A DNA stretch of 64,000 nucleotides from Octopus sinensis (GCF_006345805.1 NC_043003.1:84878001-84942000); one strand, 5' to 3'. Shown: positions 910 to 24,230, numbered from the stretch's first letter. The notes: generated by a model from the sequence alone, not told the origin. A program made the numbers and translations.

Positions 910-939
910 CTGTTGAACTTGCTGAAGGATTGATTGCAG
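910..939 (-). pseudogene. 30-nt micro-exon with dead donor (AAINPSASST)
   Basis: tatttctag|CTGCAATCAATCCTTCAGCAAGTTCAACAG|ctaagg; the donor GT is replaced by CT. Confidence 0.7.
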
Positions 940-1874
940 CTAGAAATATATAAAATACATATTATTATACAAAGAATATCTGATGACAATATCATTTTCC
1001 GTAATAGATATTATGGATACACAACATATCTGTTTTATGTTTCCTCTAATAATAACATCAATAGCTCTCGATAAAATATACCTTTCACAAACTCCATCAG
1101 ATTTTTTCACTCAGAATGTTCCTGGAAATGTCTATATTTCATGTCATTCATATAATCGTAAATACTGCATCATTTTCAGAATCCTTTTTACATCCTACAC
1201 ATTTTCATTTCCTGCTCGGCTTAATTGACTAAACTCTATTATTATTTCTGGCTTTCTCTTCTGTTCATTATACTAACTACATTCGAAACCGAGACATCAT
1301 ATCCATGTCAGAAGCAAATATTTATTAGAGGTAATATTTGTAATGCATGTCATCTTTTGTTCTACATAGTTTTACCAAAGTTCAAACATTCATATACAAT
1401 GCCTCATTTTTCAGTGTTTCACCAAAGCAACAGGTAAAGTAAATTACAGATATGTATCAATATATAGCAACATACATCAATACTTATTGTTTAACATAAT
1501 TTTATAATATTTACAACGTTTCAAAACATAAATATTTTCGTATCTTTATAATAGTTCGTAACGAAAATATGAAGTGCTTCAAATATGGGCAGAGGTCGTG
1601 CAACTTTGTGGGTGATCAATTCAATCTTTTACATTAGGCCAAATTGTTGAGCGTGACTATATTTTTCCGTCTGGCACAGGAGCTAATGCATTGATAAACA
1701 TGCCGGCATTTCAATGCATACCGAAAAGGGACACATGATGGTCAACTCAGCATTTTGGCCACACGTTAAATATTCTGTCAGTTGCTTACCTCAGGAATCT
1801 ATCAATAAAGCGATGAATATTTTAATTGTAAAATTCATTGAAAATTAACTTATTTATATAAGAGCATCACTTAC

Positions 1875-22800: not shown

Positions 22801-24230
22801 AATGACTCTTCCTAGATACAACAATATATACACACATACACACATACACACAAGCACACACACACAGCACACACACACACAAGCACACACACACAAGCAC
22901 ACACACACACAAGCACACACACACACACACACTCTCTCTCTCTCTCTCTCTCTCTCTCTCTCTCACGCACACATATATACGCACACATGCATTCAAACAT
23001 ATATATCAAAACCTGAGAGAAGGTAGGCGTGGCTGGAACAAGGGACACTATGGAGGGTGTAATGGCGCTTCGGCATAGCGAAGCAGTTCCTTAACAACTG
23101 TATGTGTAAGCTATGTCATGTTTCTGTGGAAGACATCACGCATGTGATTAGCAGCTGTCCTAAAATGTCATCACGATACTACCTCCCTATGCAGCACGAT
23201 GTTGTTGCTAAAACAATTTACAATGCCATCCGCAAAAAAGAATGTCCTGAAATAAACTTAGAAAATCCCTCTGTTATGGAATACATTCACAAACAACAAC
23301 TTAAGGAAAACTGGTGGAATATTCCCATCAAAACTTCTGTCAAATGTAAACATTAACAGGTCAGATATTGTTGTTTGGGTATGTACCGTCATAGAAGTCA
23401 GATGCCCTGCAGATATAAATATTTCTCTGAAAATCAAAAGAAAAGAAGATATATATGGACATATATATCATCTAGCTCTATATTCATAATCATACCAATA
23501 ATAATTGGAGCACTAGGAGAATCTGAATAAACAGGGATTTTCAGAAAGAGAAATCGACCGGCTAATTCGTACATTACAAGTGCAACTTGTGACTGGAAGA
23601 GTAAAAATATGCAAGACTTTTCTCAAGTTCCAAATGTGAATTTATCTGTGTTAACTACATCCCAAAGATGGAGTCATGTATCTTTGTTGGAAACCGGCTA
23701 CCTCCCCAATGGAAGATTTATGATAATTCAGAAATAGAAGAGACAGACATACATACATGCATACATGCATACGTACATACATTCTCAATATGGAAAATAC
23801 TTAGCACTCAAATGATTTGAATTTACACTCCGAAATTTTTATCAGGGACGGAGTCCACGAAGTAATGGGTGGCTATGAGAGAAATTCAGGTGAGCAGATA
23901 AGGATACAATGATGTATGTATGCATGTATTTATGTATGTACGTACATATATAGATACATGTATATGCTAAACTGGTAACACGATCTCTCTTTTTCCATCT
24001 CTCTCTCTCCCTATATATATAAATATATGTATGTATGTATGTTATGTATGTATGTATGTATGTATATGTATGTGTGTACATATGTATGTATGTATGTATG
24101 TATGTATGTATGTATCCATATCTGTAATAGAAAGTGCTAGTTTAGTGAAATAGTAAAAAAAATAGTATATCACACGATACTCACATGAAACTATGGCCAC
24201 AACGACGATGAGAAGATATATAGTCTTCAT
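1875..24230 (-). CDS. Putative micro-exon gene, left copy (spliced, 3' end outside window): secreted Thr/Ser/Pro-rich mucin-like protein, [67 protein letters not shown]...
   Basis: A phase-1 signal-peptide exon is followed by seven AG/GT-bounded exons of 30 or 21 nt, all open in phase 1. The joining is inferred; there is no transcript evidence. Confidence 0.8.
2799..2819 (-). CDS. 21-nt micro-exon (APDTKST)
   Basis: tatttccag|CCCCTGACACAAAGTCTACAG|gtaagt. Confidence 0.85.
4542..4562 (-). CDS. 21-nt micro-exon (APTKKTT)
   Basis: tattttcag|CCCCTACCAAAAAGACTACAG|gtaagt. Confidence 0.85.
6298..6318 (-). CDS. 21-nt micro-exon (VPTTKTT)
   Basis: tatttccag|TTCCTACCACAAAGACTACAG|gtaagt. Confidence 0.85.
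8054..8074 (-). CDS. 21-nt micro-exon (VPTTSTT)
   Basis: tatttccag|TTCCTACCACAAGTACTACAG|gtaagt. Confidence 0.85.
9810..9830 (-). CDS. 21-nt micro-exon (VHTTSTT)
   Basis: tatttccag|TTCATACCACAAGTACTACAG|gtaagt. Confidence 0.85.
11336..11356 (-). pseudogene. Truncated micro-exon (GTGKLPG), original donor deleted; counterpart of 60253-60282
   Basis: tatttccag|GCACTGGCAAACTTCCTGGAA|gttaaa; only a weak substitute GT remains. Confidence 0.6.
12544..12572 (-). pseudogene. Dead 29-nt micro-exon ([13 protein letters not shown])
   Basis: tatttctag|CATTGCTGCTAATAAAACCTCTGCAAAAG|ataaat; the donor is AT and the length is not a multiple of 3. Confidence 0.7.
14379..14408 (-). CDS. 30-nt micro-exon ([10 protein letters not shown]), first exon of the array
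   Basis: tatttctag|GCGTAACCAGTACTAATGGACTTCCAAACG|gtaaat. Confidence 0.8.
16200..18810 (+). mobile_element. Degenerate Penelope-like element (RT + GIY-YIG endonuclease)
   Basis: Motifs [39 protein letters not shown] and YIGET, broken by frameshifts and stops. Confidence 0.92.
18975..19240. repeat. Foldback (inverted-repeat) element between (TA)n tracts; mirror at ~52550-52820
   Basis: ccagacagttagatgatacaaaaag pairs with ctttttgtatcatctaactgtctgg, and tcagtcgagttccagattat pairs with ataatctggaactcgactga. Confidence 0.85.
19392..19426 (+). ncRNA. Degenerate minimal hammerhead-like motif in a short Penelope-derived repeat (~19325-19530)
   Basis: gttt-CCGACGA-a-gagc/tcc/gctc-GAAA-cgtt-aaac; the core differs from CUGANGA at position 2. 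Confidence 0.55.
19929..20027. repeat. (TA)n microsatellite
   Basis: Direct reading. Confidence 0.98.
20028..20403 (+). mobile_element. CR1/L2-like LINE fragment, truncated relative to the right-arm copy
   Basis: LNFYKADWK motif; mirrors ~51490-51866. Confidence 0.75.
21267..21700 (+). mobile_element. Octopus-type tRNA-derived SINE, left arm only
   Basis: ggagtggctgtgtggtaag...gggttcagtccc head, internal (TA)n(TG)n tract and aagagtaa tail; absent at the mirror position ~48050-48100. Confidence 0.9.
21810..22549 (+). mobile_element. Internally deleted Tc1/mariner (maT-like) DNA transposon
   Basis: [16 protein letters not shown] and DSAPSH motifs; imperfect ~25-bp TIRs with TA at both ends. 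Confidence 0.88.
22828..22975. repeat. (CA)n/(CT)n compound microsatellite
   Basis: Direct reading; mirror at ~46750-46890. Confidence 0.95.
23010..23640 (+). mobile_element. R4/Dong-like non-LTR retrotransposon 3' fragment
   Basis: [14 protein letters not shown] zinc knuckle, QHDVVAK (RHD-like), and IPIIIGALG. Confidence 0.8.
24185..24230 (-). CDS. Signal-peptide first coding exon ([15 protein letters not shown] + 1 nt), left copy
   Basis: atcATG start, basic-then-hydrophobic N-terminus, T|gtgagt donor in phase 1. Confidence 0.85.

What the first reader, a model, noticed from the sequence alone, without database searches (positions are those of the whole stretch)
910..24230. A micro-exon gene hidden in an apparent satellite: signal peptide plus an array of symmetric 21/30-nt exons
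Seen in sequence: complete repeat units contain, at the same position, tattt(t/c)(c/t)ag | 21 or 30 nt | gtaa. All 11 copies with an intact AG and GTAA donor (7 left, 4 right) have lengths that are multiples of 3 and are stop-free in phase 1. They encode T/S/P/G-rich peptides (VPTTSTT, APDTNST, VPVTTTNTPK). Upstream on the same strand is a signal-peptide exon that also ends in phase 1. Established knowledge: this architecture defines the micro-exon genes (MEGs) of Schistosoma, where exon skipping diversifies secreted proteins. Inference: this is a convergent MEG-like system in a cephalopod, encoding secreted or surface, probably O-glycosylated, mucin-like isoforms (NST and NRS sequons are also present). 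I am not aware of it being described in octopus. It is invisible to ORF finders and would normally be repeat-masked.
Basis: partly seen in the sequence, partly recalled or inferred. Interest (0 to 1): 0.95.

Follow-up and report, generated by a model that had tools for sequence, protein, structure and literature searches.

The report
Fast-evolving micro-exon surface mucin genes
What looks like a satellite repeat is a small cluster of real genes in which each repeat unit carries one tiny, fast-changing exon, and together these exons build a short sugar-coated protein probably tethered to the cell surface, a gene design best known from parasitic blood flukes.

Summary
The micro-exons are real and spliced. 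The finding is one of three near-identical genes: A on the minus strand, B head-to-head with it in this window, and C about 164 kb away. Each has a signal-peptide exon, 5-12 symmetric phase-1 exons of 21 or 30 nt sitting one per intron-exon repeat unit, a 36-nt linker exon and a terminal exon encoding a hydrophobic tail. The predicted products are 98-141 aa S/T/P-rich proteins with a GPI-anchor-like end, so surface-tethered rather than secreted. Public contigs show GT-AG joints exactly at predicted exon edges (last array exon to linker in 4 of 4 runs). The micro-exon is the most variable window of its repeat unit, about 7 times background, with mostly amino-acid-changing differences. Exons are gained by duplication and lost by splice-site mutation between paralogues and between organisms. 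Schistosome-style exon skipping within one sample was not seen, and the exon-1 and terminal joints were not tested. The closest architecture is schistosome SmPoMuc/MEG: it works like them, with no evidence of membership. No cephalopod report was found in the searches run; octopus identity is recalled, not tested.

The parts
24185..24230 (-). Gene A exon 1, coding part: ATG plus signal peptide [15 protein letters not shown], ends in phase 1, GTGAGT donor; TATA-like run about 60 nt upstream
   Evidence: 3 matches in the genome; joint to the array not tested
14379..14408 (-). Gene A first array micro-exon, 30 nt, phase 1-1
12544..12572 (-). Dead slot: 29 nt (out of frame), donor ATAAAT; dead in all three genes
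11335..11356 (-). Dead slot: 3' end and donor deleted (intact as a 30-nt exon in B 60253 and C 174822)
1875..9830 (-). Six 21-nt phase 1-1 micro-exons (starts 9830, 8074, 6318, 4562, 2819, 1895), one per repeat unit; spacing 1756, 1756, 1756, 1743, 924
   Evidence: a 1895-like exon is spliced in 3 of 4 runs
910..939 (-). 30-nt slot with donor CT in this genome; skipped in run X7, included (as two tandem copies) in runs X10 and X5
1..1 (-). Marker: gene A runs on beyond the left edge of the window (extended coordinates; C7 position = value + 84878000). Last 30-nt array exon -1121 to -1150; 36-nt phase 1-1 linker exon with small residues -3517 to -3552; terminal coding exon -8838 to -8902 (21-aa hydrophobic tail then TGA, identical in A, B and C)
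   Evidence: last exon to linker spliced in 4 of 4 runs; linker to terminal joint not tested
45114..45159 (+). Gene B exon 1, coding part (same signal peptide), head-to-head with A
57209..63390 (+). Gene B array in the window: intact 30-nt exons at 57209, 60253, 62645, 63361; dead 29-nt slot at 59043
   Evidence: splicing of B not tested
64000..64000 (.). Marker: beyond the right edge (extended coordinates). Gene B continues on + with a 30-nt exon 64575, linker 67406-67441 and terminal coding exon 71916-71980. Gene C lies on - from 187859 to 146333: exon 1, 30-nt exons 177872 and 174822, nine 21-nt exons 173059-159390, slot 156223 with a dead acceptor, 30-nt exon 154220, linker 151821, terminal exon 146397; a paralogue or an uncollapsed allele of A
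1..61891 (.). Inverted segmental duplication relating A and B (arms about 96% identical, ending at 33295 and 37459; homology runs on outside the window to about -43136 and 105578)

Best explanation
A cluster of two or three genes for a small, heavily glycosylated, GPI-anchored cell-surface mucin whose whole mature part is assembled from interchangeable phase-1 micro-exons. Each exon sits in its own intron-exon unit (0.9-1.76 kb in the 21-nt arrays). Unequal crossing-over and gene conversion add, remove and homogenise the units. Because every exon is symmetric, any gain or loss keeps the frame between the fixed signal exon and the fixed anchor exons. Splice-site mutations switch single exons off, and selection drives amino-acid change in the exons. 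The result is different stalk length, sequence and glycosylation sites per paralogue, lineage and probably individual. Most likely role: a variable coat, decoy or self-tag facing microbes or other cells. Shown: exon layout, open frame, splicing at the 3' array joints, excess exon divergence, presence differences between organisms. Inferred: exon 1 and terminal joints, GPI anchoring, glycosylation, the recombination mechanism and the biological role.
For: (1) Joining all intact exons gives open frames of 110, 98 and 141 aa, with a hydrophobic N-terminus (KD11 max 3.3-3.5), a hydrophilic core (S+T+P 40-61%) and a hydrophobic C-terminus (2.7) ending at the stop with no charged tail. (2) Of 14 joint rows, 5 fall on predicted exon edges: last exon to linker in 4 of 4 runs (GT-AG, shorter side 33, 33, 29, 32); 21-nt exon to last exon in X7; 21-nt exon to 939-class exon and 939-class exon to last exon in X10 and X5. 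The other 9 rows touch the stretch L030 1100-1510 (SINE-like by recall), and none of them has GT-AG ends. (3) The exon is the most variable of 82 non-overlapping 21-nt windows in the 1751-nt unit (0.189 against a mean of 0.027; 10 units). Pairwise exon against flank divergence is 0.228 vs 0.035 (15 exons) and 0.444 vs 0.202 (10 exons). In the 30-nt class pN is 0.55 and pS 0.19. Same-slot paralogue exons show 11 changes against 4.3 expected (P = 0.005), none synonymous (P = 0.036), while the terminal exon shows 0 against 3.3 expected. (4) The only out-of-frame slot class (29 nt) has a dead donor in 3 of 3 genes. (5) Array make-up differs: 6 21-nt exons in A, 9 in C, 0 in B. The 939 slot is dead in A (donor) and C (acceptor) but is present twice in tandem in both organism-B runs.
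Against: Exon 1 to array and linker to terminal joints lie outside the stretch laid and are untested. The runs are only guessed to be RNA and have no tissue record. Joints involving the 21-nt exon have only 24 letters on the short side at 88% likeness, below the tool's 31-letter bridging rule. In X1 no 21-nt exon matched. No GPI, signal or glycosylation predictor was available. In the 21-nt class pS (0.17) is also above intron divergence and pN/pS is only 1.6; pairwise counts are not independent. Intron homogenisation with purifying selection on exon differences could also make exons look fast. Nothing here bears directly on function.
Confidence: 0.6

Rival explanations
1. True MEG-like use: each gene yields many isoforms in one animal by combinatorial skipping of the symmetric exons, and that RNA-level diversity is the point of the design.
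For: All 25 intact array exons are symmetric and stop-free in phase 1, so any subset stays in frame. MEGs are described as using this design (PMC5825161, PMC4350168, passages). X10 and X5 have 3 and 2 contigs at the linker joint.
Against: None of the 4 runs showed both skipping and inclusion of the same slot. The one skip seen (X7) removes a slot whose donor is mutated in the genome. Splice sites of intact exons are near-consensus. Contigs drop rare variants and only 4 exon slots lay in the stretch tested, so this is weak evidence.
Confidence: 0.22
2. A structural glycocalyx spacer or lubricant under loose constraint: only S/T/P richness and frame matter, and exons look fast because gene conversion homogenises the introns, as argued for SmPoMuc and spider silk repeats.
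For: Introns of the 21-nt units are highly alike (mean diversity 0.027). PMC2576457 (passages) reads the same pattern as concerted evolution of introns plus purifying selection on exon differences. Many changes keep T, S or P.
Against: Non-repeated same-slot exons of the paralogues also exceed the intron rate, with no synonymous change (11 vs 4.3). In the 30-nt class pS matches the intron divergence while pN is nearly three times higher.
Confidence: 0.13
3. The product is not GPI-anchored but secreted or tail-anchored, or exon 1 belongs to a different transcript.
For: The joints to exon 1 and to the terminal exon are untested. A 46-nt and an 8-nt candidate with splice-like ends lie in intron 1 of all three genes.
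Against: Exon 1 and the terminal exon each occur 3 times in the genome, once per array, in the right orientation and phase. The terminal coding exon is invariant. The tail ends hydrophobic without a cytoplasmic segment.
Confidence: 0.04
4. Non-coding satellite or pseudogene with chance splice-like motifs.
For: Shared ancestry explains the repeated motif, and stop-free frames alone are not significant. No protein hit was found in any library.
Against: GT-AG joints fall at the predicted edges in 4 of 4 runs. There is an exon-centred divergence peak, and exon GC is 48% against 29% for the array. Three complete open frames.
Confidence: 0.01

Closest known systems
Schistosoma mansoni polymorphic mucins (SmPoMuc; PMC2576457, passages read)
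   Same: Signal peptide followed by S/T/P repeats. Each repeat is a short exon (27 bp there, 21 or 30 here) inside a tandem genomic unit of about 1 kb. Introns are homogenised (>93%) while exons differ. Clustered multigene family with variable repeat number.
   Different: SmPoMuc has 15 exons and a 234-residue C-terminal region, and splice variants and exon repetition are documented. Here the array is the whole mature protein, followed only by a linker and a GPI-like tail. Exon repeats here are diverse and show excess amino-acid change. No sequence relationship was found or expected.
Schistosoma micro-exon genes (MEGs), especially membrane-anchored O-glycosylated MEG-11, -14 and -32.1 (PMC5825161, PMC4350168 passages; PMC10526429 part 1 of 5)
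   Same: Signal peptide, short symmetric exons, tandem paralogues, fast-evolving mature region with conserved ends, mucin-like make-up.
   Different: Exons of 36 nt or less make up 63-74% of the coding sequence (about 80% quoted for MEGs). Exons arise from whole intron-exon unit duplication. Skipping is not shown. MEGs are described as restricted to platyhelminths, and this is a 2.7-Gb genome.
Small GPI-anchored mucins such as vertebrate CD24 and CD52 (recalled, no call)
   Same: Signal peptide, short heavily glycosylated core, GPI signal.
   Different: Those have a simple exon structure and a fixed core; here the core is a variable micro-exon array.
Glycophorin A/B/E cluster (recalled; the search returned no paper) and Xenopus integumentary mucins (PMC7177656 passages mention FIM-C.1 polymorphism by alternative splicing)
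   Same: Tandem paralogues of small O-glycosylated surface proteins with exons silenced by splice-site mutation; mucin repeats varied by splicing.
   Different: Transmembrane or gel-forming proteins of vertebrates; no homology implied.

Membership tests
Schistosome MEG | About 80% of the coding region in short (6-36 bp) symmetric exons | tested here: inconclusive
   63%, 67% and 74% of the CDS for B, A and C; below 80%, but essentially the whole predicted mature protein
Schistosome MEG | Signal peptide; secreted or membrane-anchored | tested here: met
   Hydropathy and sequence pattern only; no SignalP or GPI predictor available
Schistosome MEG | Variant proteins made by alternative splicing of the micro-exons | tested here: inconclusive
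   No run of 4 shows both forms of a slot; contigs drop rare variants
Schistosome MEG | Accelerated evolution of the mature region | tested here: met
Schistosome MEG | Sequence relationship to a platyhelminth MEG family | not tested
   No direct comparison with MEG proteins; library searches with single-exon frames found nothing, which is weak
SmPoMuc | Short repeat exon embedded in tandem intron-exon units with homogenised introns | tested here: met
SmPoMuc | 234-residue C-terminal region on further exons | tested here: not met
   Only a 12-aa linker and a 21-aa tail follow the array
SmPoMuc | Individual-specific splice variants and exon repetition at RNA level | tested here: inconclusive
   Tandem 939-class exons in X10 and X5 differ in sequence, which favours DNA duplication; no DNA of those samples was laid
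GPI-anchored small mucin (rules recalled) | N-terminal signal, small omega residues about 25-30 aa from the end, hydrophobic C-terminus without cytoplasmic tail | tested here: met
   By inspection and hydropathy
GPI-anchored small mucin (rules recalled) | Actual GPI addition and O-glycosylation | not testable with these tools
   Needs PI-PLC release and glycoproteomics

The most novel reading that the evidence does not exclude
A cephalopod has independently evolved a MEG/SmPoMuc-type diversification system on the host side: DNA-level shuffling of exon units plus combinatorial skipping give individual- or cell-specific GPI-anchored glyco-tags used in immunity, self-recognition or gamete recognition.
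Probability: 0.2. Interest if true: 0.9.

Novelty: new variant of a known kind. Interest (0 to 1): 0.68.

Why it matters
Micro-exon genes are described as restricted to flatworms (PMC4350168) and are tied to parasite-host conflict. A spliced, fast-evolving gene of this build in a free-living animal, probably an octopus, would show that the design arises convergently. It also points to an unrecognised variable surface antigen under strong selection, a concrete candidate for cephalopod immune, self or gamete recognition work. It shows how a gene can hide inside a repeat-masked satellite, so similar genes may be missed in other large genomes. Three copies caught at different stages of exon birth and death make the mechanism directly testable with long reads.

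Tried and rejected
The look-up of sequencing runs with 405 bases of B's terminal exon and downstream sequence: no RNA holder listed on record (24 rows; kinds only guessed); used only to pick runs. Protein libraries gave nothing, but the queries were weak single-exon frames padded by their natural intron read-through: phmmer of the 32-aa open frame holding the tail, 0 hits at E 0.001; 40-aa exon-1 read-through, 32 candidates and none at E 10; ESM Atlas, no usable hit; Pfam, 0 families for these 2 of 5 queries. The spliced product itself was not searched, so an existing database annotation is not excluded. Rfam: 0 matches in the window. Earlier findings: none in 3 answered look-ups. Literature: 'micro-exon gene'+'octopus' 0 papers; 'microexon'+'cephalopod' 2 listings on other subjects; 'octopus'+'GPI-anchored'+'mucin-like' 0; two searches gave no non-flatworm MEG in their listings; the glycophorin search gave 0; one search gave no paper on FIM-B.1 repeat exons. 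Subscription journals are not covered. Stop-free frames were rejected as main evidence. A chimeric-read artefact for the A/B inversion was rejected: arms are about 96% identical with different insertions and different arrays. Whether C is an uncollapsed allele of A (97.7-98.5% identical) was not resolved. No further symmetric exon candidate over 6 nt was found by a strict motif scan of 7 introns. Stretches of L030 without contig cover are not used as evidence.

Full report
Observation. Four more slots in the window have broken donors (12572, 11356, 939, 59043). Because the slots descend from one repeat unit, the count alone is weak: a neutral model keeps all distinct alleles stop-free with P = 0.086 and 0.46 for the two classes.

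Context. The window lies at G000:C7:84878001-84942000 in a 2.72-Gb genome. Self-comparison shows that much of the window is an inverted duplication with arms ending at 33295 and 37459. Exon 1 has 3 matches in the genome, and the repeat unit's 25 scored matches all lie within 180 kb of C7. I read 324 kb around the window. There are three copies: A (minus strand, the finding), B (plus strand, exon 1 at 45114, head-to-head with A) and C (minus strand, exon 1 at extended coordinate 187859). Intron identity is 96% for A/B and B/C and 97.7-98.5% for A/C, so C may be a paralogue or an uncollapsed allele.

Gene model. Downstream of each array I found one more 30-nt exon, a 36-nt phase 1-1 exon rich in small residues, and a terminal exon encoding 21 mostly hydrophobic residues and a stop. 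The terminal exon has 3 matches in the genome, by DNA and by protein. Joining all intact exons gives open frames of 110 (A), 98 (B) and 141 aa (C), with hydrophobic ends and a core of 40-61% S+T+P carrying 1, 3 and 5 N-glycosylation sequons. By the recalled rules for GPI signals, the end fits a GPI anchor; no predictor was available. All 25 intact array exons are stop-free in phase 1, against 4 and 10 of 25 with stops in the other frames.

Splicing. Contigs of four runs (four studies, organisms A and B, kind only guessed as RNA) were laid on 6040 bases of gene A covering the linker, the last exon, the 939 slot and the 1895 exon (likeness 88). Of 14 joint rows, 5 are at predicted exon edges (edges checked). 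Last exon to linker, a 2366-base GT-AG skip, is in 4 of 4 runs with 33, 33, 29 and 32 letters on the short side, so 3 of 4 meet the tool's 31-letter rule. In X7 a 21-nt exon joins the last exon directly, skipping the 939 slot whose donor is mutated in this genome. In X10 and X5 (organism B) the path is 21-nt exon, 939-class exon, a second variant 939-class exon, last exon. One variant copy differs from the A and C slots at 3 and 2 of 30 positions. These joints have 24-33 letters on the short side. Bin depths match these pieces arithmetically. The other 9 joint rows touch the stretch L030 1100-1510 (SINE-like by recall) and lack GT-AG ends. X1 showed no 21-nt piece. No run showed both inclusion and skipping of one slot, but contigs drop rare variants. 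The exon 1 and terminal joints lay outside the stretch, and the loose-end table was cut, so they remain inferred.

Evolution. The micro-exon is the most variable of 82 non-overlapping 21-nt windows across the 1751-nt unit (0.189 against a mean of 0.027, 10 units). Exon against flank divergence is 0.228 vs 0.035 in the 21-nt class and 0.444 vs 0.202 in the 30-nt class. pN/pS is 0.55/0.19 for the 30-nt class and 0.27/0.17 for the 21-nt class (pairs are not independent, and the 21-nt pS is itself above the intron level). Same-slot exons of the paralogues carry 11 changes against 4.3 expected (P = 0.005), none synonymous (P = 0.036). Exon 1 and the linker are at the intron rate, and the terminal coding exon is invariant. 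The one out-of-frame slot class has a dead donor in 3 of 3 genes, and the 939 slot is dead by different lesions in A and C.

Mechanism. Best reading (0.6): a GPI-anchored mucin stalk built from frame-neutral modules. Modules are gained and lost at the DNA level by unit duplication, conversion and splice-site mutation, and selection diversifies their residues. The likely role is a variable coat, decoy or self-tag. Layout, 3' splicing and divergence are shown; anchoring, glycosylation, recombination route and role are inferred. Rivals: MEG-type skipping as the main source of diversity (0.22), a loosely constrained spacer with homogenised introns (0.13), a different topology or first exon (0.04), non-coding repeat (0.01).

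Comparison. MEGs are defined by about 80% of the coding region in symmetric 6-36 bp exons with variation by alternative splicing, and include O-glycosylated membrane-anchored members (PMC5825161, passages). They are said to be restricted to platyhelminths and fast-evolving (PMC4350168, passages; PMC10526429, first of five parts). Here the fraction is 63-74% and skipping is unproven, so this works like a MEG but is not filed as one. SmPoMuc is the closer design: a 27-bp exon in ~1-kb tandem units with homogenised introns, a pattern that paper also notes for spider silk and a fungal glycoprotein (PMC2576457, passages). SmPoMuc has a 234-residue C-terminal region that is absent here. CD24/CD52 and glycophorins are recalled analogues only. 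No supplements were read.

Novelty. The architecture is known from other lineages, so this is a new variant of a known kind. The new elements are the host lineage, the GPI-like end and the exon-centred diversifying signal. Searches found no cephalopod report, and protein libraries gave no hit with single-exon queries. An uncharacterised annotation in a genome database cannot be excluded. Interest 0.68.

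Noticed in passing
window 1416-1434 (+), also 90, 4083, 5839, 7595, 9351, 11102: Repeat units of A carry, on the opposite strand, a 19-nt AG/GTAA-bounded stretch (not a multiple of 3; not a divergence peak). 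The depth bin holding it (L030 5051-5252) has unexplained contig depth in X1 and X5 with no listed joint. Could be a chance short match or an antisense micro-exon.
   Followed up: partly
window 33903-35576: A separate, almost perfect fold-back (689-bp arms, 99.7% identical) at the centre of the large inversion. It contains an open frame at 34652-35239 matching Pfam DUF4674 (E 8e-13); possibly a retrocopy and/or an assembly fold-back.
   Followed up: partly
window 17111-18530 (+) and its inverted copy near 52800-55200: Fragmented reverse-transcriptase-like frames in intron 1 of A and B, by recall resembling a Penelope-type element (not scanned in Pfam).
   Followed up: no
extended coordinates 122200-130000 and 201200-223600 (L006-L007, L014-L016): Related LINE-like elements flank the block holding gene C on both sides, a possible route for its duplication or a place where a second haplotype was inserted in the assembly.
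   Followed up: no
genes B and C, exon junctions: Some N-glycosylation sequons (NDT, NIT) are formed across exon junctions, so gain or loss of a neighbouring exon would create or remove a glycan site.
   Followed up: no
intron 1 of A, B and C (about 310-520 nt after exon 1; and 5.9-8.4 kb in): A 46-nt and an 8-nt stretch with splice-like ends are shared by all three copies; both would shift the frame alone but sum to 54 nt. Untested.
   Followed up: no
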